In this document: positions 2,824 to 41,891 of the stretch, piece by piece
Position numbering within the stretch: position 1 is the stretch's first letter
Layout: each line of letters begins with the position of its first letter
Assembly: GCA_963779415.1 (NCBI GenBank)
Contig: CAVZYA010000001.1
Location: forward strand, 768,001-832,000
DNA length: 64,000 nt
Direction of reading: 5' to 3'
DNA from: an uncultured Acidobacteriota bacterium
GTDB taxonomy: Bacteria > Acidobacteriota > Thermoanaerobaculia > UBA5066
Position numbers and translations under genes: made by a program
The notes under the pieces: model-generated
The model's input: only the letters and a program-made list of their open reading frames with translations
What the model was told of the DNA's origin: nothing
Database searches by the model: none

Positions 2824-3874
2824 TCAGCAGATCCGCGGGAGCTGTTCGCCGGTGAGGAGGTCCACGATCCGGAGGCCGCCGATCCGGCTTCGCATGACGA
2901 CCTTGCCGGTGTGGTCCGGGACGACGTCTCCGATTCGTGCGGCTTTCGCACCCAGAGGATGGCGCCGGAGGGCCGTCAGGGCGGCGTCGGCGGCTTCGGG
3001 CGCGACGATGACGAGGCACTTCCCCTCGTTCGCCACGTAAAGCGGATCGAGGCCGAGGATCTCGCAGGCGCCCCGGACGTCCTCGCTGACCGGGATGCTC
3101 GTCTCTTCGAGCCGGATCCCCACCTTCGCCTGGACGGCGATCTCGTTCAGCGTCGAAGCGACGCCCCCGCGGGTCGGGTCGCGGAGGACGTGGACCTTCT
3201 CCCCCGCCGCCGCGAGGAGCCCTTCGACAAGACCGTCGAGGGGCGCGCTGTCGGAGACCAGCTCCGTGTCGAACTTCAGCCCTTCGCGGACCGACATGAT
3301 GGCGATTCCATGGACGGCGATTTCGCCCGAGACGAGGACGACGTCCCCCGCCCGGGCCCGGCGCGGCGAGATCTCGATCCCTTCGCGGACGAGGCCGATT
3401 CCGGTCACGTTGACGAAGACGCCGTCCCCTTTTCCGCGGTCGACGACTTTCGTGTCGCCCGTGACGATCGGAACGCCGACGCCTTTCGCCGCGTTTCGCA
3501 TCGAGTCGACGATCCGCCGGAGGTCGTCCATCGGAAGACCTTCCTCGAGGATCAGCCCGGCGGAGAGCGCCAGCGGCTTCGCGCCGCACATGGCGAGGTC
3601 GTTGACAGTCCCGTAGACAGCGAGCGACCCGATGTCGCCGCCGGGGAAGAAGAGCGGCTTGACGACGAAGGAATCGGTCGAGAAGGCGAGCTTCTTCCCG
3701 CCGACGTCGAGGACGGCCCCGTCGTGCAGCTCGCGAAGGAGGGCGTTGTCGAACGACGGCACGAAGAGCTGGTCGATGAGCCGCTGAGTCAGCCGGCCGC
3801 CGCCGCCGTGCGCCAGGAGGACATGCGGATAGTCCGAGAGTCGGGACCGGGCAGGAGAGGTCGAAGTCGCTCAC
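2824..3874 (-). CDS. hypE: Hydrogenase maturation protein HypE (apparent +1 frameshift near 3841)
   Basis: '[17 protein letters not shown]', 'DPTRGG', C-terminal 'GEQLPRIC'. The N-terminus [11 protein letters not shown] / [15 protein letters not shown] is split over two frames. Confidence 0.92.
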
Positions 3875-4961
3875 ACCGCATCTCCCGTAGTTGTAGTAAG
3901 CCGCGCAGGCCCCTTCCGAGGAGACCATCGGCGCGCCGAGGGGCTTCTCCGGCGTGCATTGCGTCCCGAACGCGGCGCAGGCGCTCGGCTTCTTGAGGCC
4001 CCGGAGGATCTCCCCCGCGATGCAGATCGAGGGCTCTTCGGCCGTGATCGTCCCGACGTCGAAGCGCTTCACGGCGTCGTGACCGGCGTATTCGTCCCTC
4101 AGCCGCCATCCGCTCTTCGGGATGACGCCGATGCCGCGCCACGGCGCGGTCGCAGACCTCGAAGACCTCGGCGAGCGTCTCCTGCGCCCTCACGTTCCCG
4201 TCGCGCGTGACGGAGCGGGCGTACTGGTTCTCGACGCCGACGCGCCCCTCTTCGAGGGCTTTGAGGGTGAGCTGGATGCCGTGCATCAGGTCGAGCGGCT
4301 CGAAACCGGTCACGACGACCGGGATCCGGTACTTCTCGGCGATCGGCTCGTACTCGCGGTAGCCCATGACGGTGCAGACGTGGCCGGCCGCGAGGAACCC
4401 CTGCACGCGGTTCGTCGGGGAGCCGAGGATCGCTTCCATCGCGGGGGGGACGAGGACGTGGGAGACGAGGAGGGAGAAGTTCGGGACCCCCGCCTTCTTC
4501 GCCTGCCAGACGGCCATGGCGTTGGCCGGGGCCGTCGTCTCGAAGCCGACGGCGAAGAAGACGACTTCCTTTTCCGGGTTCTTCCGCGCGATCTCCAGCG
4601 CGTCGAGCGGCGAGTAGACCATCCGGACGTCGCCCCCCGAGGCCTTGACCGAAAGAAGATCGCTCTTCGAGCCGGGGACGCGGAGCATGTCGCCGAACGA
4701 CGTGAAGACGACGCCGGGCCGTCGGGCGATGGCGATCGCGCGGTCGATCATCTCGAGCGGCGTCACGCAGACCGGGCAGCCGGGGCCGTGGACCATCGTG
4801 ACGAACGGCGGGAGCATCTCGTCGATCCCGAACCGGATCAGCGTGTGCGTCTGCCCGCCGCAGATCTCCATCAGCGTCCAGGGGCGGGAGACGAGGCCGC
4901 GGATCGACGCGGCGAACTTCCGGACCGATTCACCGTCCCGGTACTCGTCGACGAAGCGCAC
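3871..4961 (-). CDS. hypD: Hydrogenase maturation protein HypD (apparent frameshift near 4143; stop position uncertain)
   Basis: 'MEICGGQTH', '[10 protein letters not shown]', 'GFETT', 'AGHV'. The C-terminal '[22 protein letters not shown]' lies in another frame. Confidence 0.92.
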
Positions 4962-4974
4962 GCGAGAGACTCCG

Positions 4975-5238
4975 TCAGCCCTTCGTTTCCGCCGGCGGGT
5001 TGAGGTCGGCGAGGTCCCCCATCTCCTGAAGAGTCCGGAAGACCTCCTTCGCCGACTCCTCGTCCAGCTTCGAGATGGCAAAGCCGACGTGGACGAGGAC
5101 CCAGTCCCCGGCCTCCGCCTCCGGCGTGTACATCAGGCAGACCTCCTTCGAGATCCCGCCGAACTTCACGACGCCCATCGTCATCCCGAGGTCGTTCCGC
5201 TCGACGCGGACGATCTGTCCCGGCACGCCCAGGCACAT
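4975..5238 (-). CDS. hypC: Hydrogenase chaperone HypC/HybG
   Basis: 'MCLGVPG' start and '[12 protein letters not shown]'. Confidence 0.95.
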
Positions 5239-5253
5239 ACGTGGTCCCCCCGC

Positions 5254-7650
5254 TCAGACCAGAATAGCGCGTCCGGAGGCAATCCGCGCCGCCGCCACGG
5301 CTGCCTGCCCGAGGCAGATGCCGCCGTCGTTCGGCGGGACCTCGCGGTGGAGAAGGACGTCGAATCCTTCGCGACGGAGGGCCGCCGCGGTTCGCTCGGT
5401 CAGGAGCCTGTTCTGGAAGCAGCCGCCGGTCAGCGCGACACGCGGACAGCCGACGCGGCGGGCCACCTCCACGATCGCCGCGGCGAGCGCGTTGTGAAAA
5501 CGCGCGGCAAGCCGCGCGATCGGAACGCCGGCTGCGTGCTCGGCGAGGAGGGCCGAGACGAGGGGAGCCCAGTCGAGAAGGATCTTTGAGGGGGAAGCTG
5601 ACGCATCTACCGTCGGTGCGGTACCTGGCGCGCAGTCACGAAACGCGAGGAGACCGATTTCCTCGAGGGGTAATTCAAGAGACCCCGTGCCGACCTCTCC
5701 GGGGTCGGCGAGCCATTCGAGCTGCATGGCCGCCTGCCCTTCGAAGGAGCATCTCTGTGCCACGCCGAGAAGCGAAGCGACGGCGTCGAAGAGCCGGCCG
5801 GCGGATGACGTCACCGGGGAATTGAGGTTTCTTTCCAGCATCGATGAGAGGACTCGCTTCTCGGCCGCAGAAAACGCTCCCGAGGTCGCACCTGCTCCTT
5901 CTTTCTTACCTTCCAAGAAATCCCCCGTCGTTCCCCTTCCCCCTCTCTCTCTTTCTTCTTCAACCGCCATCTCCCAGAGGATCCCCGCCGCGCTGCGGCG
6001 TGGCTCGCGGACGGCGGCTTCGCCGCCGGGGAGGCGGAACGGCTTGAGATGCGCGACGCGCTCGTACCCGTTCGCATCGCCGAGAAGGAACTCGCCTCCC
6101 CAGACCGTCCCGTCCGTGCCGTAGCCCGTCCCGTCCCACGTGACGCCGAGGGCCGGGCCGTCGACGCCGTTCTCGGCGAGGCAGGAGGCGAGGTGGGCAT
6201 GGTGGTGCTGGACGGGGATCGTCGGGAGCCCCGACGCGAGCGCCCACTTCGTCGAGAGGTAGTCGGGGTGGAGGTCGTGCGCGACCGCCGACGGCGTCAC
6301 CTCGTAAAGGCGCGCCAGATCCCCGATCACCCGTTCGAACGCCGCGAGCGCCTGCGGCGTCTCGAGGTCGCCGATGTGCTGCGAAATGAAAGCCTGCCGT
6401 CCCACGGCGAGCGCCACGGCGTTCTTCAGGTGGGCGCCGACGGCGAGGAGCGGCGGCACCTCGTGCGGCAGGCGGACCGGGAGCGGCGCGAAGCCTCGTG
6501 CCCGGCGCAGGAGCCGCGGGACGCCGTCCACGATCCGCGCTACGCTGTCGTCCATGTGCCTCTCGATGGGGCGGTCGTGGACGAGGAAGAGGTCCGCCAT
6601 CCCGCCGAGGCGGACGAGCGCTTCTCTCTCGTCCGTGCAGATCGGCTCGTCGGAGAGGTTTCCACTGGTGGCGACGATCGGAAACTCGAGCGTGTCGAGC
6701 ATCAGGTGGTGGAGCGGCGTCGCAGGAAGCATCAGGCCGAGGTTCGGGTTCCCCGGCGCCACGTTCTGGGCCACTCCGTTTCCTTCCCGCGCCGGGAGAA
6801 GAACGATGGGCCGCTCCGGCGACTCAAGAAGGAGCGCCGCCTCCTCCGAGACCTCGCAGAGTCTCCTCGCAGCGGGAATGTCGCGGACCATCAGGGCGAG
6901 AGGCTTTTCGTACCGCTGCTTCCGCTCGCGTAGAAGCGCGACGGCGGCCCCGTTTTGCGCGTCGCATGTCAGGTGGAAGCCGCCGAGCCCCTTCACGGCC
7001 GCGATCCGGCCCTTCGAGAGAGCCTCGCCGCAGGCGAGCAGGGCGTCGTCCTGGGTCGCGAGGACGTCACCGGACGGTGCCCAGAGTTCGAGATGAGGCC
7101 CGCAGCTATCGCACGCGTTCGGCTGGGCATGAAAGCGCCGGTCGCGCGGGCTCTCGTATTCGGCACGGCAATCCGCGCAGAGCGCGAAGCCCGCCATCGT
7201 CGTGTTCGGCCTGTCGTACGGCAGCGCCCGGAGGATCGTGAAGCGCGGCCCGCAGTTCGTGCAGTTCGTGAAGGGATAGCGGTGCCGGCGGCTCGACGCG
7301 TCCCGCACCTCGGAAAGACAGACGCCGCACGTCGCGATATCCGGCAGGACGAGAACGCTCTTCGCCCCATTCTCGTGGCTGAACCGGATCTCGAAGGCCG
7401 ACGCCCCTTCAGGGGGGACCTCCCGGTCGCGGACCGAGGTGATCCGGGCGCGAGGAGGGGGATCTTCCTCCAGCCGCTCCCGGAACCGGCCGACGGCGGC
7501 GGCGTCCCCCTCCACCTCGAGGAAAACGCCGCGCCCGTCGTTCCGGACCCAGCCACCGAGCCCCCCGTCCGCCGCGAGGCGGTAGACGAACGGCCGAAAG
7601 CCGACCCCCTGGACGGCCCCCTCGATCTCGACCCGAAGCCTCGTCCGCAC
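5254..7650 (-). CDS. hypF: Carbamoyltransferase HypF
   Basis: Acylphosphatase 'GAVQGVGFRPFVY', Zn fingers 'CTNCGPR', 'HHHAH', 'PPNDGGICLGQ'. Confidence 0.96.
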   Translation of the reverse strand: MRTRLRVEIEGAVQGVGFRPFVYRLAADGGLGGWVRNDGRGVFLEVEGDAAAVGRFRERLEEDPPPRARITSVRDREVPPEGASAFEIRFSHENGAKSVLVLPDIATCGVCLSEVRDASSRRHRYPFTNCTNCGPRFTILRALPYDRPNTTMAGFALCADCRAEYESPRDRRFHAQPNACDSCGPHLELWAPSGDVLATQDDALLACGEALSKGRIAAVKGLGGFHLTCDAQNGAAVALLRERKQRYEKPLALMVRDIPAARRLCEVSEEAALLLESPERPIVLLPAREGNGVAQNVAPGNPNLGLMLPATPLHHLMLDTLEFPIVATSGNLSDEPICTDEREALVRLGGMADLFLVHDRPIERHMDDSVARIVDGVPRLLRRARGFAPLPVRLPHEVPPLLAVGAHLKNAVALAVGRQAFISQHIGDLETPQALAAFERVIGDLARLYEVTPSAVAHDLHPDYLSTKWALASGLPTIPVQHHHAHLASCLAENGVDGPALGVTWDGTGYGTDGTVWGGEFLLGDANGYERVAHLKPFRLPGGEAAVREPRRSAAGILWEMAVEEERERGGRGTTGDFLEGKKEGAGATSGAFSAAEKRVLSSMLERNLNSPVTSSAGRLFDAVASLLGVAQRCSFEGQAAMQLEWLADPGEVGTGSLELPLEEIGLLAFRDCAPGTAPTVDASASPSKILLDWAPLVSALLAEHAAGVPIARLAARFHNALAAAIVEVARRVGCPRVALTGGCFQNRLLTERTAAALRREGFDVLLHREVPPNDGGICLGQAAVAAARIASGRAILV

Positions 7651-12185: not shown

Positions 12186-13046
12186 TTACTTCTTCGCCTT
12201 CCACTCCGCCAGGGCCTTCTCGAAGGCCTCCAGGTTCGGCTTGTCGGGAGAGGCCTTTCCGAGGGCCACGGCCTCCTCGCCGGCCTTGATCGCCTCGGCG
12301 GTCTTCCCTTCCGCCGCGAGCATCCGGGCCATCTGGGCCGTGTTCGCGTAGCCCTTCTTCGCGGCCACGGAGCGCTCGACGTCCTTCATCGCCTCACCCG
12401 GGTCGCCGAGCTTCTCGCTCGCGAAATACCGCCCCACCGCGAGCGGCGTCTCCCAGTCGTCCGCCTTCGCCCCGGCGACCGCCGCGCGCCCCTTCGAGAG
12501 GACCAACGCTTTGGTGTCGACCTTGAAGTGCACCGGGACCCGCAACTTGTCCCAGATCAGGGAGAGGTCCGCCCCGTCGTTCGAGACGTTCCGGAAGACG
12601 ATCGTGAAGGTCTCCACCGATTCCGGGAAGGCCACCGGCTTGACGGCGACGCGGAGGGCGTCCTTCTTCTCGTCGTACTCGGTCTTGTACCAGAGGTCGA
12701 GGTCCTTGTTGAAGGCGACCGTCCACGACTCCTTGCCGGGGATCGTGACGATGCTGTAGGTACCGGCCGCGAGCTTTTTCCCCTCGACCTCGATGTCGTC
12801 CGGGAAGGAGAGCGTCGTGGCGCGGTTCGCGCCCGTTCGCCACGGCTTGTCGTACGGGACGAGGCCGCCCCAGATCACCCGCCCCTTCACGCCGGGACGG
12901 CTGTAGGAGACGCTGAATTCCGTGACGCCGATTCTCTGCGTCACCGTGGCCTTCGGGCTCGGCATCGGGGCCTCGAACTGGGCGGCGAGGGGCGCCGCGG
13001 AGAGAGCGAGGGCCAGTGCCGCGGAGAGGAGAGCCGGTTTCTTCAT
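12186..13046 (-). CDS. DUF2911 domain secreted protein with TPR-like C-terminus
   Basis: Signal peptide; 'SPKATVTQRIG..YSRPGVKGRVIWGGLVPYDKPWRTGAN'. Confidence 0.85.
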   Translation of the reverse strand: MKKPALLSAALALALSAAPLAAQFEAPMPSPKATVTQRIGVTEFSVSYSRPGVKGRVIWGGLVPYDKPWRTGANRATTLSFPDDIEVEGKKLAAGTYSIVTIPGKESWTVAFNKDLDLWYKTEYDEKKDALRVAVKPVAFPESVETFTIVFRNVSNDGADLSLIWDKLRVPVHFKVDTKALVLSKGRAAVAGAKADDWETPLAVGRYFASEKLGDPGEAMKDVERSVAAKKGYANTAQMARMLAAEGKTAEAIKAGEEAVALGKASPDKPNLEAFEKALAEWKAKK

Positions 13047-13166
13047 CGAATCGCTCCTTTCATCTTTCGGGAGTGGGGAGGCTATCGCAGAACCGGCCGG
13101 GACGCCTCCGCCGAACTCACGTAAGATCCCATTACGGAACTGACCAGTCCGTTCCATTATTCAGAG

Positions 13167-13754
13167 ATGTCCCGAAGCCGAACGGAAAAGAAAAGGACGG
13201 AGATCCTGAAGGCCGCCTCGGACGTCTTCGCCCGGAAGGCCTTTCACGAGGTCCGGACGGACGAGATCGCCGAGGAAGCCGGCGTCGGGAAGGGGACCCT
13301 CTACCGGTACTTCCCGACGAAGGACGACCTCTACTACGCTTCGGTCCTCTCCGGATTCGACGAGCTGGACCAGGTCCTCGAGAGTCTCCGGAACCGGGCC
13401 GACTCGCCGGCCGAGACGGTGGAGCGGCTCGCCCGCGAGGTTCTCCGGATCTTCTGGTCCCGCCCCTCGTTCTCCATGGTGCTGCACAGCCATGCGCGAC
13501 GCTTCCGGGTCCGGGAGCGGGAGATGCACCGCCGGCGCGAGGGCCTCGTCCGGTTTGTGCGGGAGACGGTGGCTCGCGGCGCTTCGCGGGGCGACTTCCG
13601 GCCGGTGGATCCCCGAATCGCCGCCGAAATGTTCCTCGGCATGGTCCGGGGCGCGATCATCCACCGGAGTGCCGCGGACACCCCCGCCGCGCTCGTGAAG
13701 ACCCTCACCGGAACCTTCGTCAACGGAATTTCCCGGAGGAAGGAGGCCTCATGA
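13167..13754 (+). CDS. TetR/AcrR family regulator
   Basis: HTH 'IAEEAGVGKGTLYRYFPTKDDL'. Confidence 0.93.
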   Translation: MSRSRTEKKRTEILKAASDVFARKAFHEVRTDEIAEEAGVGKGTLYRYFPTKDDLYYASVLSGFDELDQVLESLRNRADSPAETVERLAREVLRIFWSRPSFSMVLHSHARRFRVREREMHRRREGLVRFVRETVARGASRGDFRPVDPRIAAEMFLGMVRGAIIHRSAADTPAALVKTLTGTFVNGISRRKEAS

Positions 13755-15193
13755 GGCCGCGTCCCCTGCTTCTCGCCGCTCTCTCCGCTCTGGCCGCTCT
13801 GGTGACGGGATGCGTGGAGAGCCGTCCGGGAGCCTTCGTGGACGCCTCGACGCCGCCGGCCCCCGAGAAGCAGAGCGCCGCGCCGATGCCGCCGGCGCCC
13901 CCCCAGACGGCGCCCCTGCTTCCGCCGGGCCTGGCCGAGGGCGGGAACCTTCCAAAGACGATCACTCCGGTCGAGGCCGTCGGCCTCGCCCTCAGGAACA
14001 ACCCCGCCACGAGGCAGTCCTGGTTCCAGGCACGGGCCGCCGCCGCGGAGGTCGGGAGCAAGCGGGCGGAGTACTACCCGAGCGTGGAGCTTGACGGTTC
14101 CTGGATCCGGCAGAAGGGGGCGTTCCTGAACGGGCAGACCGTCTACTACCAGACGACGTACGGCCCCACCGCCCTCTTGAACTGGCTCCTCTTCGACTTC
14201 GGGGGACGCGCCGCGGACGTGGCGGAGGCCCAGGCGCTCCTCGCGGAGGCGAATGCGGCACACGACGCCGTCCTGAACGACGTCATCCTTCAGGTGCTGC
14301 AGGCGTACTACGGTTACGAGGGAGCCAAGTCGCTCCTCTCGGCGCAGGAGGCCAGCCTGAAGCAGGCCGAGGAGAACCTTCGCGCGGCGGAGGAACGGCA
14401 TCGGGCCGGAGTCGCGACGATCGCCGACGTCCTTCAGGCGCGGACGACCGCGTCGCAGCAGCGCCTCGCCTACGACACCGTGCAGGGCCAGATCGCCGTG
14501 ATCCGCGGCGCGCTCGCCACGTCGCTCGGCGTCCCGGCCAACACGCCGATCGAGGCCGGCGAGCTGCCGGAGAACCTCGACCTCGACCGTGTCACGAAGA
14601 CGGTCGACGATCTGATCGCCCAGGCGGAGAAGCAGCGCCCGGACCTCGCCGCCGCGCGCTCGGCGGCGATCGCGGCGGAGCGTCACGTCGCCTCCCTCCG
14701 ATCGAACCTCTATCCGACCCTCGGCGGCGCGGCGAGCGGAGGCCGAACCTACTTCGGCGGCGCGGGGGCCGGTGCCTCCACGGACATCTACACCGTCGGC
14801 GTCCTCCTCCGGATTCCGGTTTTCACCGGGTTCCAGAGTCAATACGATCTCCGGAAGGCCGAAGAGGAGCGGGGGGCCGCGGACGCCGGTGCGCTGAGCG
14901 TCGAGCAGCTCGTGATCCAGCAGGTCTGGGCCAGCTACTACAGCGTGAAGACGGCGGCGCAGCGGACCCGGACGGCCCGGGACCTCCTCGCGAGCGCGCG
15001 CGAGTCGGCGGACGTCACGCGCGGGCGTTACACCGCCGGCGTCGGAAGCATCCTCGACCTCCTGACCGCCGAGAGCGCCCTCGCCTCGGCCCGCGCACAG
15101 GAGGTCGGAGCCCGCGCCGAGTTCCTCTTCGCGCTCGCCCAGCTCGCCCATGACGTCGGCTCGATAGAGCCGGTCGTAAAGGAAGCTCCATGA
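13751..15193 (+). CDS. TolC-family outer membrane efflux lipoprotein
   Basis: Lipobox LVTGC; OEP repeats 'RHRAGVATIADVLQA' and 'RYTAGVGSILDLLTA'; ATG overlaps the TetR stop. Confidence 0.9.
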   Translation: MRPRPLLLAALSALAALVTGCVESRPGAFVDASTPPAPEKQSAAPMPPAPPQTAPLLPPGLAEGGNLPKTITPVEAVGLALRNNPATRQSWFQARAAAAEVGSKRAEYYPSVELDGSWIRQKGAFLNGQTVYYQTTYGPTALLNWLLFDFGGRAADVAEAQALLAEANAAHDAVLNDVILQVLQAYYGYEGAKSLLSAQEASLKQAEENLRAAEERHRAGVATIADVLQARTTASQQRLAYDTVQGQIAVIRGALATSLGVPANTPIEAGELPENLDLDRVTKTVDDLIAQAEKQRPDLAAARSAAIAAERHVASLRSNLYPTLGGAASGGRTYFGGAGAGASTDIYTVGVLLRIPVFTGFQSQYDLRKAEEERGAADAGALSVEQLVIQQVWASYYSVKTAAQRTRTARDLLASARESADVTRGRYTAGVGSILDLLTAESALASARAQEVGARAEFLFALAQLAHDVGSIEPVVKEAP

Positions 15194-37894: not shown

Positions 37895-37949
37895 AATCTT
37901 CCGGTTCTCTAGGACGATTTTTGCCTTTGCGCTTAGCGCGTGAGGATAC

Positions 37950-37979
37950 CGCGTTCAGCGGCGAGCGGAGCGAGGCCGC
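37950..37979. repeat. attC-like repeat, copy A
   Basis: cgcgttcagcggcgagcggagcgag(g)ccgc, 29/30 identical to 40617-40646; lies just downstream of the 38021..39109 gene. Confidence 0.65.
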
Positions 37980-38020
37980 GGCACGCGCGTGTCAGTCCTC
38001 GGCCCGTTGCTGGTTCTCGT

Positions 38021-39109
38021 TCACCTTCCGTGAAGTAGCAGCCATCCGCATCCGCACAGAACTGCGGCGAGAACAAACAGAATCATGGGACTCAGGGCGG
38101 GTATCGGGGTAGCGGCGAGTGGGCCTCCGGATAGCCGCCCCAGTCGACTGGCCACCTCCGTGAACCAGATTGCGCCGTCTCGGCCCACGGTAATTCCCAC
38201 CGGTTCGGACTGTGGCTGAGGAAGGGCAAACGCCGTCAGACTGCCCGCCGTCGTGATGCGGCCGATCTCGTTCGCCCCTTCGTCTGTGAACCACATGGCC
38301 CCGTCCGGGCCTTGAACGATGTCGACAACGCCAGTTGACGCAGGATTCGTAAGCGGAAACTCGGACACTTGCCCACCGACGCCGACCCTCACGACGCTAT
38401 GCGCCTGACCGTAGTTGATCTGTGCACCGAGCCAGAGACTCCCGTCCGGGCCCGCAGCGATGCTGCCATTTGGTTCGGGAGGATTGGGAAGCTTGTAGGA
38501 CAGGAACCCACGGCCACCTGTGTCCAGTCGGCCAACCCCGTTCCCTGAGAACCAAAGCGCCCCATCAGGCCCAACGGTGATCGAATGCGGAAAGAAGCCA
38601 GAAGGAAGCGGATATTCAGTGACCGCGCCTGTCAGAGTCAGTCGACCAATTTGATTCGATAAAGGGTCCGTAAACCAAAGCGCACCGTCAGGCCCGAGAG
38701 TTAGGTCCGCTGCTATGGAGCCCGGAGGAAGAGGAAAGGTCGAGACTGCCCCTGTGGTCACCGAAACACGCACGATCGGGCCGGAGCTCCCGCACCACAT
38801 GCCGCCGTCCCGCGCATCCGCGCAGTGCCCCGGGGTCGCGCCGGGGAACCCTACGGGGGTTTGGAACATCGTCTCAACCCCAGCGGGCGTTATCCGACCC
38901 ATCAGCGACGTTCCCGCATACCACGTCCAGAAGTTGCCGTCTGACCCTACGGTGATCGGAATCGGATTGAATGACACCGGAAATTCCGTTATCTGAGCGG
39001 GCGTCTGCCCAACGACGGCGGCAGCCATAGGGAAAAGTAGACCTAGGACCGCGACCGAACGGGCGAGCCGGTGAGTTGGTTTGGCGCGGAGGTTGGGTCG
39101 CCTATTCAT
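38021..39109 (-). CDS. Vgb (virginiamycin B lyase)-like beta-propeller surface protein with an IPTL-CTERM-like tail
   Basis: Repeated 'ITVGPDGALWFT..IGRIT'; signal peptide; C-terminal 'PIPALSPMILFVLAAVLCGCGWLLLHGR'. Confidence 0.85.
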   Translation of the reverse strand: MNRRPNLRAKPTHRLARSVAVLGLLFPMAAAVVGQTPAQITEFPVSFNPIPITVGSDGNFWTWYAGTSLMGRITPAGVETMFQTPVGFPGATPGHCADARDGGMWCGSSGPIVRVSVTTGAVSTFPLPPGSIAADLTLGPDGALWFTDPLSNQIGRLTLTGAVTEYPLPSGFFPHSITVGPDGALWFSGNGVGRLDTGGRGFLSYKLPNPPEPNGSIAAGPDGSLWLGAQINYGQAHSVVRVGVGGQVSEFPLTNPASTGVVDIVQGPDGAMWFTDEGANEIGRITTAGSLTAFALPQPQSEPVGITVGRDGAIWFTEVASRLGRLSGGPLAATPIPALSPMILFVLAAVLCGCGWLLLHGR

Positions 39110-39297
39110 CGTGTCACCCCGAAATCGAGTGTAAGCCTCGCCGGTATGCCCTACTCGCCCTTTCGACTCCTAACGATATCGTTTCAATGAAGACGAAGAA
39201 AGGGCTGTCCTCGCCGACGTGGTCCCGATGAAATCGGGCCACAAGGACTGACGGGGTCAACCTCGAAGAGGTGCCCCAAGCAAGGGAGGACAGCCCG

Positions 39298-40407
39298 ATG
39301 AAAGCTTACGTGGGAGTGGACGTGCACAGCAAGTCGAGCGTATTCGTGATTCAGAACGAGCGGGGCGAGGAGCTGGGGCGGGGCGAAGTGCCGACGTCTG
39401 CGAAGGGATTCAGGGCGCTTCGAGAGCGGTTTCGGCTCGAGGCGTCCACGGCTGTGGCGCTCGAGTCGGGGACGATGGCGTTCTTCGCGGCGCGACAGCT
39501 GAGGGAGCTTGGACTGTCCCCTTTGGTGGTGGATGCGCGGGAAGTCCGGATGAAAGCGCACCGGCCAAAGCAGAAGAGCGACACGCGGGATGCCGGGGCG
39601 CTCTGCGCCGGCCTTCGCCAGGGGATTTACGAAGCCATCGTCCACGTGCCGCCGGAAAGGATCGAGCACCTGCGGAACACGCTCTCTCGCCGCCGGCACT
39701 TCGTGCGGCTGGCCACAGCTGAGATCAACGCAGCCAAGAAGATGCTTCGCAGCGCGGGACTGTCCGATCTGAGCCGGCAGACCCTGGGGACAGAGCACGC
39801 GTGGCGCCGCCTGCTGCGGGCACTTTTCGACCAACCTCAGGTCCGGAGCTTCGTCGAGCTGCACCGGCGGGCCTGGCAGAGCGCGATGGAGCAGAAGACC
39901 ACCTGCGAAAAGAGCCTCGGGGAGCAGCAGGCGCTCTTTCGGGAAGAGCTCGAGAGGCTCCGGACAGTGCCGGGCGTGGGTGAGATCGTCGCCCTGACGG
40001 CCATCGCGGTCTTCTCGGATGTCACACGATTTCCCAGCGCCAAGCACGCCGCCAGTTACGCGGGCCTCGTCCCCCAGACGTACCAGTCGGGCGAAACGAA
40101 CCGCCAGGGCCACATCACCCGGACCGGCTCGCCCGAGCTGCGCGCCATGCTCGTGCAGGCGGCTCACACGGCCCGAAGGCAAAGCAGCCCCCTGCACCCG
40201 TTCCTGAGAGATCTCAGCCTGCGTCTGGGCGCCCGGCGAGCCGTCATCGCCGTGGCGCACCGGCTCTGCCGGGTGCTGTACGCGATGCTGCGCGACAAGA
40301 CGGTCTTCGATGCCTCGAAGCTGAAAGCCCACGAGCCTTGCCCGCGCGTCGCCGGCGCACGGCTCTATCGGCTGAAACCTCAACCCAGGAGGACCGTGAT
40401 TCGCTAA
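39298..40407 (+). CDS. IS110 family DEDD transposase/recombinase
   Basis: 'YVGVDVHS', 'ALESG', 'KSDTRDA', 'TVPGVG', 'YAGLVPQTYQSG', 'AVAHRL'. Confidence 0.95.
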   Translation: MKAYVGVDVHSKSSVFVIQNERGEELGRGEVPTSAKGFRALRERFRLEASTAVALESGTMAFFAARQLRELGLSPLVVDAREVRMKAHRPKQKSDTRDAGALCAGLRQGIYEAIVHVPPERIEHLRNTLSRRRHFVRLATAEINAAKKMLRSAGLSDLSRQTLGTEHAWRRLLRALFDQPQVRSFVELHRRAWQSAMEQKTTCEKSLGEQQALFREELERLRTVPGVGEIVALTAIAVFSDVTRFPSAKHAASYAGLVPQTYQSGETNRQGHITRTGSPELRAMLVQAAHTARRQSSPLHPFLRDLSLRLGARRAVIAVAHRLCRVLYAMLRDKTVFDASKLKAHEPCPRVAGARLYRLKPQPRRTVIR

Positions 40408-40555
40408 GAGGGCAAGAGCACGCCGCAACTGTTGCCGAGAATCGGATGGATGACCCCGCTGCTGAACGCTGAGCGAAAGAGCTCGGGATATCGTCTGGGG
40501 CGCCATCCGCTGAAGTGATACGTGGGGCATTGACCCCGAATGGACGCGTGGCCGG
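40408..40555 (+). ncRNA. Putative bridge/seekRNA region of the IS110 element
   Basis: GATATCGT (40487-40494) equals the left target flank; CCGCTGAA (40507-40514) is the reverse complement of the right part of the target; a small hairpin lies between them. Confidence 0.65.
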
Positions 40556-40616
40556 CGGCTTCAAGCGGCAAGAAGACCCATCCAACGACGAGGCGCTTGA
40601 CAAGAATCTTCATGGG

Positions 40617-40646
40617 CGCGTTCAGCGGCGAGCGGAGCGAGTCCGC
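40617..40646. repeat. attC-like repeat, copy B
   Basis: Matches 37950-37979; abuts the stop of 40646..41044. Confidence 0.65.
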
Positions 40647-41044
40647 TACCAAGCGCCACTTGATCCTGATGCCTCGAACTCAACGACTTTCGTAAGGCGA
40701 AGGGTAACGCCCATCAGTTGGATGTTTCGAGCGCCGGGCGCCACGCGGAAGAGGCTACCGTGCGCTCCGGCAAGTTCACGATAGTAGCGTTCGACCTCCA
40801 AGCTGAACGCCTGATGATTGAACGGGCCGGGATAGGAGGCGAGGTCGGGAGGGCCAACCTCAAGCGGGTTGTCGGACTCGAACTTGGCGCCGACGATCTG
40901 TTTCACGTCGCAGTGAAGCCCCGTCAATTCGCGACCGTTCACTTCGAGAGTGAAGAACACGCGCGACACCATGTGCTCATCGTCGCTGGCGAATTCCTGT
41001 GAGTTCACTTCGCACTTCAAGAATGTGATGCGAATGGTGGGCAT
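40646..41044 (-). CDS. Hypothetical protein (cassette-like ORF)
   Basis: 132 aa with globular composition, RBS GAGGAG upstream, lower GC. Confidence 0.65.
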   Translation of the reverse strand: MPTIRITFLKCEVNSQEFASDDEHMVSRVFFTLEVNGRELTGLHCDVKQIVGAKFESDNPLEVGPPDLASYPGPFNHQAFSLEVERYYRELAGAHGSLFRVAPGARNIQLMGVTLRLTKVVEFEASGSSGAW

Positions 41045-41220
41045 CGCGCGCTCCTCTTCGGACGCCCCAGAGTACTGCGCCGAAGGCCGGGAGCGAAGCG
41101 CGCCGCTCTACTCGAAGGATGTCACGCGCGGCAGCTGGTCCGCGTCGTCGGCGAGTTCGCAGCGAGACGCGCAGCACGAACGCTCGACCCGTAAACCGTT
41201 GAGCGTGCAGTCCGTCGAGG

Positions 41221-41263
41221 GCTTGGGAAGCTGACGTTCTGCCGCTGAACTACACCCGCTCGA
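41221..41263 (-). repeat. Displaced 5' half of tRNA-Gly (att site)
   Basis: 43 bp identical to 36850-36892; identity stops just after the anticodon loop. Confidence 0.92.
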
Positions 41264-41275
41264 GGGCGGAGGGCT

Positions 41276-41304
41276 GTTTTACCCGCGCCCGGGGGGCGCG
41301 TCAA
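41276..41304 (-). promoter_or_regulatory. Putative sigma70 promoter, likely the original tRNA-Gly promoter
   Basis: Minus strand TTGACG-N17-TAAAAC, ending 16 bp upstream of the tRNA 5'-half copy. Confidence 0.6.
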
Positions 41305-41891
41305 GGCTCGGGAGGCCCCGGAGCCTCTTCCCCGTGCCGCGCGATGCCGCGGGAGGACCGGAGGACGTAGTGGAGCCCCGATCCGACGGCGAGGGCGGCG
41401 ACGATCCCGAAGAAGGCCCGCGCGACCTGGGCCGGGAGCACTTCGACGTTCGCTAGGAGGATCGCGACGATCAGGCAGATCTCGGAAAAGGTCGTCAGCT
41501 TCCCGAGGACGGACGGCGGGAACTCCCGCGTACCGAGCGCGAGGTACATCACGAGCGAGACGACGAGGATCAGGACGTCCCGGAAAATCGTCAGGACGAG
41601 GAGCCAGATCGGGACGTGGACGACGGTCGGCGTCGCTCGAAGCGAGAAGACGACGAAGCTGGAGACGAGGAAGAGCTTGTCGGCGATCGGGTCGAGGTAG
41701 GCCCCGAGCGGCGAGCCCATGCCGAAATGCCGGGCGAGGTAGCCGTCCACGATGTCCGTGATCGCGGCGACGAGGAAGATGACGAGCGCCAGAGAGTGCC
41801 GCCCGTCGAGGATCGTCATGACGAGGAACGGGAGGGCGACGAGGCGGAGGAAGGTGAGGAGGTTCGGCAGGGTCCACGGGCGGAGCTCCAT
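41301..41891 (-). CDS. CDP-alcohol phosphatidyltransferase (PgsA-like)
   Basis: 'PNLLTFLRL', 'TDIVDGYLAR..SPLGAYLDPIADK'. Confidence 0.9.
   Translation of the reverse strand: MELRPWTLPNLLTFLRLVALPFLVMTILDGRHSLALVIFLVAAITDIVDGYLARHFGMGSPLGAYLDPIADKLFLVSSFVVFSLRATPTVVHVPIWLLVLTIFRDVLILVVSLVMYLALGTREFPPSVLGKLTTFSEICLIVAILLANVEVLPAQVARAFFGIVAALAVGSGLHYVLRSSRGIARHGEEAPGPPEP

What the first reader, a model, noticed from the sequence alone, without database searches (positions are those of the whole stretch)
39167..40570. IS110/IS1111 element whose downstream non-coding end matches its own 16-bp target (bridge/seekRNA-like guides)
Seen: removing 39187-40564 restores CCTAAC-GATATCGTTTCAGCGGC. In the non-coding region after the transposase, GATATCGT (40487-40494) is identical to the first 8 nt of this site. 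CCGCTGAA (40507-40514) is the reverse complement of the next 8 nt, and a TGG-GGCG-CCA hairpin sits between the two. A second hairpin, GGGG-CATTGA-CCCC (40524-40537), displays the reverse complement of TCAATG seen at the left junction and may be a donor guide. Known: IS110/IS1111 recombinases use bridge/seekRNAs with a same-sense left guide and an antisense right guide, and IS1111-type elements encode the RNA downstream of the transposase. Inference: this is an intact RNA-guided recombinase with readable specificity. The exact junction is ambiguous by about 1 nt because TTCAA occurs at both ends.
Basis: partly seen in the sequence, partly recalled or inferred. Interest (0 to 1): 0.85.

Follow-up and report, generated by a model that had tools for sequence, protein, structure and literature searches.

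The report
RNA-guided insertion sequence in integron attC site

Summary
The element is real, but its anatomy differs from the finding. It spans 39181-40617 (1437 bp), not 39187-40564. Related copies stay homologous up to ...TCTTCATGGGC. It is inserted antisense in an integron attC site, 5 nt from the GTTAGG core that starts the next cassette. The uninterrupted site GATAYCGMGYTCAGCGG occurs 260 times in 31 of 61.

GATATCG (40487-93) is a genuine same-sense guide. Its partner is GCUGAACGC (40461-69), antisense to the right flank, not CCGCTGAA. The two face each other across an internal loop of a conserved fold, antisense guide first, as in published IS1111 seekRNAs.

The guides track the flanks. 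The antisense guide matches 152 of 162 nt over 18 insertions. The same-sense guide matches in 17 of 18. In six genomes, 14 of 14 occupied attC sites lie within one mismatch of the resident guides, against 22 of 53 free sites. A 56%-identical relative sits elsewhere in attC with a correspondingly changed guide.

CCGCTGAA and the CATTGA loop do not covary. No RNA data could be obtained. Verdict: a new member of a known kind.

The parts
39168..39180 (+). Left half of the interrupted attC site: TCCTAAC (reverse complement of the GTTAGGA core that starts the next cassette) followed by GATATC.
   Evidence: Every left flank ends (Y)TAAC/G-GATAYC. The uninterrupted repeat reads GCCTAAC-GATATCG(C/A)GTTCAGCGGCGAG...GTTAGGC.
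39181..40617 (+). The insertion sequence, 1437 bp. In this copy the ends are ambiguous by 1 nt, because CG stands at both junctions (39180-81 and 40617-18).
   Evidence: Homology among copies with different outer flanks. In 9 copies (L036, G420 x6, G428 x2) the left junction reads C-G and the right reads C-A. This places the crossover right after the C.
39187..39193 (+). Left subterminal inverted repeat, ATGAAGA.
   Evidence: Complement of TCTTCAT at 40607-13. In the 56%-identical L069 element both arms differ together: ATGAAAG / CTTTCAT.
39183..39188 (+). TTCAAT, a -10-like hexamer that would lie 17 nt after TTGACA (40597-602) only when the two ends are joined in a circle.
   Evidence: TTGACA, 17 nt (18 in L029), TTCAAT in 8 of 8 copies. 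The integrated state scores 2 of 6 for the -10. No promoter-like site was found in the linear sequence. Function is inferred.
39298..40407 (+). Transposase/recombinase gene, 369 aa. D8, E56, D95, D98 and S264 are read by eye as the DEDD plus Ser residues.
   Evidence: The C-terminal domain aligns to ISCro4 (9t56) and IS621 (8wt6), with the SG motif conserved.
40417..40566 (+). Conserved structured non-coding region, the proposed seekRNA/bridge-RNA body. Its true 5' and 3' ends are unknown.
   Evidence: 94% mean column identity over 9 copies. RNAalifold gives 45 pairs. Covariance model R1 finds it only next to this transposase lineage, in 9 of 63 family genomes.
40461..40469 (+). Antisense (T) target guide GCUGAACGC, complementary to the top strand of the right flank GCGTTCAGC (40618-26).
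   Evidence: 9 of 9 nt here. Over 18 independent insertions, 9 match 9/9, 8 match 8/9 and 1 matches 7/9. Five guide variants occur, four of them standing at a matching flank.
40469..40486 (+). Hairpin separating the two target guides (CUGAGC-loop-GCUCGG).
   Evidence: pair 56/67 is A-U in 5 copies and G-C in 4.
40487..40496 (+). Same-sense (B) target guide GAUAUCG. Its next bases, UCU (UUU in most copies), resemble the first bases of the element's left end.
   Evidence: Positions 1-6 equal the left flank in 17 of 18 insertions. L038 is the exception. The GATACCG variants sit at GATACCG flanks (L028, L032).
40507..40514 (+). It is a real 8/8 antisense match to TTCAGCGG in the right flank, but it is not supported as a guide.
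   Evidence: Invariant across copies whose flank differs. CCG is paired in stem 27-29/91-93.
40516..40521 (+). Candidate donor guide UGAUAC, antisense to the left end GTTTCA with one mismatch. Hypothesis only.
   Evidence: In L069 the homologous AGAUAC is a 6/6 antisense match to its left end GTATCT, beginning at the shared G. In the window this is not distinguishable from chance.
40524..40537 (+). Hairpin GGGG-loop-CCCC. The loop is variable and is not a guide.
40540..40549 (+). Candidate donor guide AUGGACGCGU, same-sense to the right junction ATGGGCGCGT (9 of 10). Hypothesis only.
   Evidence: In L069, AUGGACG equals its right end ATGGACG 7/7 (10/10 with the flank). The C/A at 40547 varies together with the G/U at 40468. 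That is one evolutionary event.
40597..40602 (+). TTGACA, a -35-like hexamer in the right end.
   Evidence: Conserved in copies; L030 reads TTAACA.
40607..40613 (+). Right subterminal inverted repeat, TCTTCAT, 4-5 nt from the end.
40618..40666 (+). Right part of the interrupted attC site (GCGTTCAGCGGCGAGCGGAGCGAGTCCGC...). Its far end is degenerate in this copy, so the end coordinate is approximate.
38021..39109 (-). Cassette gene that starts 59 nt beyond the attC core. It encodes a 362-aa protein of the virginiamycin B lyase (Vgb_lyase) family.
   Evidence: PF24684, 214.8 bits.
37945..37961 (+). Uninterrupted attC target-type site GATACCGCGTTCAGCGG at the far end of the same cassette. It has one mismatch to the same-sense guide.
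   Evidence: G000:C1:805945.

Best explanation
This is a 1437-bp IS1111-type member of the IS110 family (39181-40617). It is inserted antisense into the attC recombination site of an integron gene cassette in an Acidobacteriota genome. It sits 5 nt from the GTTAGG core, near the 3' end of attC as read in the cassette direction.

The 210-nt region after the transposase gene is proposed to encode a seekRNA/bridge RNA. Two single-stranded segments face each other across an internal loop:
- GCUGAACGC (40461-69) pairs with the top strand of the right half-site, G-CGTTCAGC.
- GAUAUCG (40487-93) pairs with the bottom strand of the left half-site, GATAT-CG.
The two footprints overlap at the crossover, C|G.

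Shown by comparison: the ends, the attC target, the conserved fold, and the fact that both guide segments change with the flanks.

Inferred from the published IS1111/IS110 mechanism:
- the RNA is made and bound by the recombinase;
- the element excises as a circle, whose joint would create a TTGACA-17-TTCAAT promoter;
- recombination is conservative and makes no duplication.

More tentative (about 40-50%): the strands flanking the second hairpin (40516-21 and 40540-46) read the element's own joined ends.
For: 1. Family: Pfam PF01548 and PF02371; NF033542 at 225 bits against a cut-off of 140.
2. Ends: homology of 12 related loci (6 from genome contigs, 6 from metagenome contigs) runs to ...TCTTCATGGGC and stops there.
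3. Target:
- The flanks are the two halves of a repeat, GCCTAAC-GATATCG(C/A)GTTCAGCGGCGAG...GTTAGGC.
- The uninterrupted site GATAYCGMGYTCAGCGG has 260 matches in 31 of 61 family genomes and 0 control matches, in arrays about 450-600 bp apart.
- An integron integrase (TIGR02249, 468.8 bits, cut-off 265) lies beside copies of the repeat in the window's own genome.
- In a 20-site array the longest ORF is on the strand opposite to the element's direction in 15 of 19 cassettes, and in all 7 cassettes that an ORF fills by at least 80%.
4. Fold: the RNAalifold consensus puts the two guides on opposite strands of one internal loop. The closing hairpin has a two-sided change, A-U in 5 copies and G-C in 4.
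5. Covariation:
- The antisense guide matches the right flank in 152 of 162 nt over 18 insertions. The variable positions 7 and 10 match in 17 of 18 each, and position 8 in 10 of 18.
- Among the first 9 loci, 83 of 100000 permutations of the flanks did as well. Relatedness was not removed.
- The same-sense guide matches in 17 of 18.
6. Occupancy within genomes: 14 of 14 occupied sites have at most 1 mismatch to the resident guides, against 22 of 53 free sites (one-sided Fisher 3.9e-5). In G004 the 10 copies of the commonest attC type (2 mismatches) are all free.
7. Retargeting: L069 (transposase 56% identical) sits in the middle of attC, CGAAG-CG|AGTCCGC. Its loop reads CGAAGCGU in place of GAUAUCGU.
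8. Order: antisense guide 5' of same-sense guide, overlapping footprints and a downstream non-coding region are what Siddiquee et al. describe for IS1111 seekRNAs, including attC-targeting ISKpn4 and ISPst6.
Against: - No RNA evidence.
- In this single sequence the matches are only mildly unusual: 61 of 2000 shuffles.
- Position 8 of the antisense guide mismatches in 8 of 18 insertions, including all six copies in G420. L040 has two mismatches. L038 has a same-sense guide mismatch.
- L069's antisense guide pairs with only 10 of 12 flank bases, with one bulge. Its ideal site was not enriched in 17 genomes of its genus: 15 matches against 21 control matches.
- L029's left junction reads GATATCG-AGTTCA-ATGAAG where the other 10 left junctions read GATATCG-TTTCA-ATGAAG. 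This is unexplained.
- The crossover can be placed only to within C or CG.
- The window's copy is single, although 4 perfect free sites exist in the genome. It also has two broken pairs in the outer stem, so its activity is uncertain.
- Copies within one genome are not independent, and only about four guide changes underlie the covariation.
- The transposase is 369 aa, outside the 330-350 aa quoted for IS1111 transposases. Its phylogenetic place was not tested.
Confidence: 0.85

Rival explanations
1. The element ends at 40564 with TTCAA at both ends. The guide pair is GATATCGT (5') plus CCGCTGAA (3'), flanking a TGG-GGCG-CCA hairpin. CATTGA in the next hairpin is a donor guide.
For: All the strings are present at the stated places. 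CCGCTGAA is an 8/8 antisense match to TTCAGCGG in the true right flank.
Against: - Homology continues 53 nt past 40564.
- TTCAA at 40560-64 is specific to this copy and breaks a conserved stem.
- The restored 16-mer occurs in 0 of 61 genomes.
- CCGCTGAA is invariant where the flanks read CTCAGCGG.
- The CATTGA loop varies while the left end does not.
Confidence: 0.03
2. The recombinase recognises the attC site by protein-DNA contacts or by the folded attC structure. The guide-like matches are by-products of shared descent between elements and the attC types of their hosts.
For: attC sites are structured, and proteins (IntI) do recognise them. The matches in one sequence are weakly significant. 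Few independent guide changes exist. Position 8 mismatches are tolerated.
Against: - Within single genomes the element occupies the attC variants that match its guides rather than the commonest variant.
- L069 changed both position in attC and guide together.
- The guides lie in the loop geometry that has been shown experimentally to guide relatives, per the sections of Siddiquee et al. read.
Confidence: 0.07
3. The 40461-69 segment covaries with the right junction because it pairs in RNA with a read-through transcript of the junction, or with 40546-49, as a regulatory structure. It does not pair with target DNA.
For: ACGC (40466-69) is complementary to GCGU (40546-49). Pair 52/131 is G-C in 5 copies and U-A in 4. 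97% of cells are paired, against 11-61% when the partner is slid by 1-3 columns.
Against: - The complementarity is only 4 bp and reflects one evolutionary event.
- It conflicts with pairs of the consensus fold.
- The flank bases belong to attC, not to the element, since uninterrupted sites carry them.
- This reading does not explain the same-sense guide or the occupancy result.
Confidence: 0.04

Closest known systems
IS1111-family elements with a seekRNA (ISEc11, ISPa11, ISKpn4, ISPst6; Siddiquee et al. 2024, PMC11187229; sections 6, 9, 12, 13 and passages read)
   Same: - DEDD transposase.
- The longer non-coding region lies downstream of the gene.
- Subterminal inverted repeats.
- The antisense (top-strand) guide lies 5' of the same-sense (bottom-strand) guide, with overlapping footprints.
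- No target duplication.
- A promoter would be assembled at the circle joint.
- ISKpn4 and ISPst6 also target attC sites.
   Different: - The transposase is 369 aa, against 330-350 aa quoted for the family.
- It is at most about 32% identical to any IS110-family protein found on PLSDB plasmids.
- The host is Acidobacteriota.
- RNA production and binding are untested here.
- The supplementary figures showing the ISKpn4/ISPst6 seekRNA-attC matches could not be seen (supplements closed), so a base-by-base comparison was not made.
IS1111-attC group (ISPa21, ISPst6 and relatives; Tetu & Holmes 2008 and Post & Hall 2009 were not held; known here only through a passage in PMC3001079, and reference lists)
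   Same: Targets integron attC sites and is inserted antisense to cassette transcription.
   Different: [quoted passage not shown] This lineage sits 5 nt from the 3' core (GTTAGG), and its 56%-identical relative L069 sits in the centre.
- Common descent with that group was not tested and looks unlikely given the low identity to plasmid-borne relatives.
- A different IS110-family element (29% identical), with a 10-bp subterminal repeat, occupies the other end of the same attC type in L059.
IS621 / IS110-group bridge RNA (Durrant et al. 2024, PMC11208160, and Hiraizumi et al. 2024, PMC11208158; passages read)
   Same: - Two guides per loop, one per DNA strand, flanking a hairpin.
- A short core at the crossover.
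- Possibly a second loop for the donor ends.
- Guide bases that match the recombined junction recall the handshake guides.
   Different: - In IS621 the RNA lies upstream of the gene.
- The guide order along the RNA is the reverse of the order seen here.
- Here the donor loop is only a hypothesis, with one mismatch in each arm in the window's copy.

Membership tests
IS110 family (DEDD recombinases) | N-terminal DEDD/RuvC-like domain plus C-terminal Transposase_20 domain | tested here: met
   PF01548 at 56.1 bits and PF02371 at 85.6 bits. NF033542 at 225.3 bits against a cut-off of 140.
IS110 family (DEDD recombinases) | Catalytic D, E, D, D and the serine of the SG motif | tested here: inconclusive
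   The SG motif (S264) aligns with ISCro4 and IS621. D8, E56, D95 and D98 were read by eye against the residue list in the Hiraizumi passage. The N-terminal domain did not align to the solved structures.
IS1111 group | Subterminal inverted repeats (7-17 bp) | tested here: met
   ATGAAGA 39187-93 and TCTTCAT 40607-13, each 4-6 nt inside the ends. L069 has ATGAAAG / CTTTCAT.
IS1111 group | The longer non-coding region lies downstream of the transposase gene | tested here: met
   210 nt downstream (40408-40617) against 117 nt upstream (39181-39297).
IS1111 group | In the seekRNA the top-strand-complementary segment lies 5' of the bottom-strand-complementary segment | tested here: met
   40461-69 (antisense) precedes 40487-93 (same-sense).
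IS1111 group | Transposase clusters with IS1111 transposases (330-350 aa, GL-P----S(t)G motif) | tested here: inconclusive
   The GLVPQTYQSG motif is present. The length is 369 aa, outside the quoted range. No phylogeny with named references was made.
seekRNA / bridge RNA-guided recombination | Guide segments that covary with the target flanks | tested here: met
   There are mismatches, mainly at position 8.
seekRNA / bridge RNA-guided recombination | The RNA is transcribed, binds the recombinase and is required for transposition | not testable with these tools
No Rfam family matched.
seekRNA / bridge RNA-guided recombination | A donor-binding loop that reads the element's own ends | tested here: inconclusive
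   In L069, ATGGACG (sense) and AGATAC (antisense) both abut the shared G of the joint, either side of the second hairpin. Both matches together arose in 63 of 2000 shuffles. In the window each arm has a mismatch, and 994 of 2000 shuffles did as well.
IS1111-attC group | Inserted in attC sites, antisense to the cassettes | tested here: met
IS1111-attC group | Insertion near the 5' end of attC | tested here: not met
   The insertion is 5 nt from the 3' core GTTAGG in the cassette direction. The criterion comes from a passage in PMC3001079.
IS1111-attC group | Monophyly with ISPa21 and ISPst6 | not tested
   No named reference sequences were at hand. The best plasmid matches are 30-32% identical.
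Integron attC site (the target) | Inverse core RYYYAAC and core GTTRRRY at the two ends; arrays spaced by one cassette; an integron integrase in the genome | tested here: met
   GCCTAAC ... GTTAGGC, with 20 sites in 17 kb. 260 sites in 31 of 61 genomes. TIGR02249 at 468.8 bits, about 660 bp from a site.
Integron attC site (the target) | Folded bottom strand with extrahelical bases | not tested
   Not examined.

The most novel reading that the evidence does not exclude
This is a previously undescribed Acidobacteriota lineage of attC-specific, RNA-guided IS1111-like elements, distinct from the classical IS1111-attC group. It has been naturally retargeted along the attC site, from next to the 3' core to the centre. 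Its RNA is a full four-guide bridge: a target loop (40461-69 / 40487-93) and a donor loop whose arms flank the second hairpin (40516-21 / 40540-46). Each loop has its antisense arm first, and the two arms of each loop overlap at the crossover base.
Probability: 0.4. Interest if true: 0.45.

Novelty: new member of a known kind. Interest (0 to 1): 0.35.

Why it matters
RNA-guided targeting by IS110/IS1111 elements, and IS1111 relatives that hit attC sites, are both already published, so the mechanism itself is not new.

What this locus adds:
- A clean natural data set. There are 18 independent insertions, five variants of the antisense guide and dozens of free and occupied attC variants within the same genomes. 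Together they show which guide positions are read strictly (7 and 10) and which tolerate mismatch (8).
- A diverged relative that moved to another position in the same site by changing its guide.
- Evidence that chromosomal integrons of soil Acidobacteriota are invaded at both ends of attC by different IS110-family lineages. This should block cassette excision and read-through expression.
- A compact GC-rich recombinase and RNA pair whose specificity can be read from sequence, which may interest people engineering bridge recombinases.

Tried and rejected
- An alternative junction model has the crossover after TTCA, with the target GATATCGTTTCA|GCGG. It was rejected because that site is absent from 61 genomes, while GATAYCGMGYTCAGCGG is abundant. 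Only L029's left junction would fit it.
- An orthologous empty site was sought with the left flank in 60 relatives (no usable match) and with the right flank (only the attC repeat and one 70% match to the neighbouring gene). None was found, so the empty-site argument rests on paralogous attC sites.
- Rfam 15 over 38500-41500 gave one sub-threshold chance hit (RSV_PBS, E 0.14) and nothing else.
- The single-sequence fold of 40405-40570 was not unusual (z -0.8).
- No sigma-70-like promoter was found in the linear element.
- A search for the ideal site of L069's antisense guide gave chance level, 15 matches against 21 control matches.
- The protein search of 401 genomes of the class at E 1e-40 found only 3 genomes with a match, the window's own included. 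The RNA-model search of the family was more productive.
- The 4-bp complementarity 40466-69 / 40546-49 is left unexplained.
- Literature. Searches for 'attC' + 'bridge RNA' and for 'integron' + 'Acidobacteriota' + 'attC' + 'IS110' found no description of this lineage. PMC12444791 only cites the IS1111-attC papers.
Full report
**What is at the coordinates.** The ORF 39298-40407 encodes a 369-aa IS110-family recombinase: PF01548 and PF02371, and NF033542 at 225 bits against a cut-off of 140. Its C-terminal domain aligns to the solved ISCro4 and IS621 recombinases, with the SG motif kept. The element is single-copy in its 4.36-Mb genome. Rfam has nothing for the region.

**Where the element really ends.** Twelve related loci were found in genome and metagenome contigs. 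Eleven have transposases 80-86% identical and one partial locus, L041, is 72%. More came from an RNA-model search of the family. After removing duplicates, these give 18 independent insertions with a readable right junction.
- The TTCAA at 40560-64 is private to the window's copy. The other 8 of 9 aligned copies read TTCGTG, and the window's two changed bases break two pairs of a stem that those 8 keep.
- The element is therefore 39181-40617, 1437 bp.
- It has 7-bp subterminal inverted repeats: ATGAAGA at 39187-93 and TCTTCAT at 40607-13.

**The target is an integron attC site.** Left flanks always end (Y)TAAC-GATAYC. Right flanks begin (G/A)(C/A)G(T/C)TCAGCGGCGAG...GAGTCCGC...GTTAGRC.
- These are the two halves of a repeat that stands uninterrupted elsewhere in the same genome.
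- The site GATAYCGMGYTCAGCGG has 260 matches in 31 of 61 genomes of the family and no control matches. The matches lie in arrays spaced about 450-600 bp apart.
- A 17-kb array from G425 has 20 such sites, each GCCTAAC...GTTAGGC.
- The window's genome has an integron integrase (TIGR02249, 468.8 bits, cut-off 265) about 660 bp from one of these sites.
The arithmetic was right, but the site is not a natural one.
- Cassette ORFs run opposite to the element's direction. This holds for the longest ORF in 15 of 19 cassettes, and for all 7 cassettes that an ORF fills by at least 80%.
- The element is therefore antisense to the cassettes and sits 5 nt from the GTTAGG core that begins the next cassette. 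Here that cassette carries a Vgb_lyase-family gene.

**The crossover.** In most copies CG stands at both junctions: GATAT-CG-TTTCA on the left and ATGGG-CG-CGTTCA on the right. In 9 insertions (L036, six in G420, two in G428) the left junction reads C-G and the right reads C-A. Free sites reading GATATCAAGCTCAGCGG exist in those genomes. The exchange therefore falls just after the C. L029 is an unexplained exception, with GATATCG-AGTTCA-ATGAAG on the left.

**The RNA.** The 150 nt from 40417 are 94% identical across 9 copies. They give a consensus fold of 45 pairs.
- Stems 40443-58 / 40496-509 enclose an internal loop.
- The loop's 5' strand contains GCUGAACGC (40461-69).
- Its 3' strand contains GAUAUCG (40487-93).
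- The loop is closed by a hairpin with a two-sided change, A-U in 5 copies and G-C in 4.
- GCUGAACGC is the exact complement of the right flank GCGTTCAGC (40618-26).
- GAUAUCG equals the left flank plus the crossover.
- Antisense arm first, footprints overlapping at the crossover, is what Siddiquee et al. report for IS1111 seekRNAs. It is the reverse of IS110-type ISEc21 (sections 9 and 12 read) and of IS621 (passages).

**Do the guides track the targets?** Five variants of the antisense guide occur: GCGTT, GCGCT, GAGTT, AAGCT and ATGCT/TAGCT, each followed by CAGC.
- Over 18 insertions, 9 match their flank 9/9, 8 match 8/9 and 1 matches 7/9, or 152 of 162 nt.
- Position 7 agrees in 17 of 18, position 10 in 17 of 18, and position 8 in only 10 of 18.
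- For the first 9 loci, permuting the flanks reached the observed score in 83 of 100000 trials. This is not a true probability, because the copies are related.
- The same-sense guide agrees with the left flank in 17 of 18. Both GATACCG copies of one genome lie at GATACCG flanks. L038 is the one mismatch.
- A test within genomes avoids shared descent between element and host. In six genomes, 14 of 14 occupied sites are within one mismatch of the resident guides, against 22 of 53 free sites (Fisher 3.9e-5). In G004 the ten copies of the commonest attC type, two mismatches away, are all free.
- L069, whose transposase is 56% identical, is inserted in the centre of attC..CGAAG-CG|AGTCCGC.. Its 3' loop strand reads CGAAGCGU instead of GAUAUCGU. 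Its 5' strand pairs with 10 of 12 bases of its right flank, with one bulge. An ideal site for that strand was not found above chance.

**What fails.**
- CCGCTGAA (40507-14) is an 8/8 antisense match to the true right flank. But it never varies, even where the flank reads CTCAGCGG, and part of it is in a stem. Its counterpart in L069 matches nothing.
- The loop CATTGA varies freely while the left end is constant.
- In this single sequence, matches as long as the real ones arise in 61 of 2000 shuffles.

**Donor side (tentative).** In L069 the strands flanking the second hairpin read AGAUAC, antisense to its left end GTATCT, and AUGGACG, identical to its right end. Both abut the shared G, mirroring the target loop. 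Both matches together arose in 63 of 2000 shuffles. In the window the homologous UGAUAC (40516-21) and AUGGACG (40540-46) each have one mismatch to the ends and are not distinguishable from chance. The base at 40547 (C/A) changes together with the guide base at 40468 (G/U). This is one event, and it is also compatible with a 4-bp RNA pairing.

**Circle promoter.** Joining the ends would place TTGACA (40597-602) 17 nt before TTCAAT (39183-88) in 8 of 8 copies (18 nt in L029). The integrated state has only 2 of 6 for the -10, and the linear element shows no promoter-like site. This is sequence-level only.

**Comparison and novelty.** The mechanism matches published IS1111 seekRNA elements, two of which (ISKpn4 and ISPst6) target attC.
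- The classical IS1111-attC group is described as inserting near the 5' end of attC, antisense (passage in PMC3001079). This lineage is antisense but at the 3' end.
- Its transposase is only about 30-32% identical to the best plasmid-borne relatives.
- I could not read Tetu & Holmes 2008, Post & Hall 2009, or any supplements.
- Two literature searches found no description of this lineage.
- I file it as a new member of a known kind.

Noticed in passing
window 37945-39180 and 40618-41044: The element sits in a small cluster of two attC sites with no integrase nearby. The layout is: attC (37945-~38005); a 362-aa Vgb_lyase-family gene on the minus strand (38021-39109); the interrupted attC; then a 132-aa ORF with no Pfam match (40646-41044, minus strand).
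   Followed up: partly
G000:C2:1589144-1592887 (locus L060): The genome's integron integrase (C2:1591940-1592887, minus strand) lies upstream of attC sites at C2:1591265 and 1589144, and on the same strand as the cassette direction they imply. This is not the usual divergent arrangement.
   Followed up: no
L059 (G425:C18) 2950-6224 and 12320-14090: Two attC sites of one array are interrupted at the same internal position by an IS3-type element (rve domains). One of them also carries a second IS110-family element, 29% identical to the window's. It is inserted at the opposite end of attC (GCTGCAA|...|TGAGGTGTTAGGC) and has a 10-bp subterminal repeat, GGACTCCTCC / GGAGGAGTCC.
   Followed up: partly
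window 39202-39212 and 39286-39296: GGGCTGTCCTC near the left end is the exact complement of GAGGACAGCCC, which covers the ribosome-binding site just before the transposase ATG. Both are conserved in the other copies. This may be a translational block. It was read by eye and was not folded.
   Followed up: no
window 40563-40564: The window's copy reads AA where the 8 other aligned copies read GT. This breaks two pairs of the outer stem of the RNA and creates the TTCAA that misled the junction call.
   Followed up: yes
L029/L034 (G382:C122), left junction: One copy has GATATCG-AGTTCA-ATGAAG instead of GATATCG-TTTCA-ATGAAG. This gives an 8-nt direct repeat, CGAGTTCA, at its two junctions. Unexplained.
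   Followed up: partly
G420 (loci L066, L073, L076-L079): Six copies in one genome all carry the guide variant ATGCTCAGC, and all sit at AAGCTCAGC flanks. The same single mismatch therefore recurs six times.
   Followed up: partly
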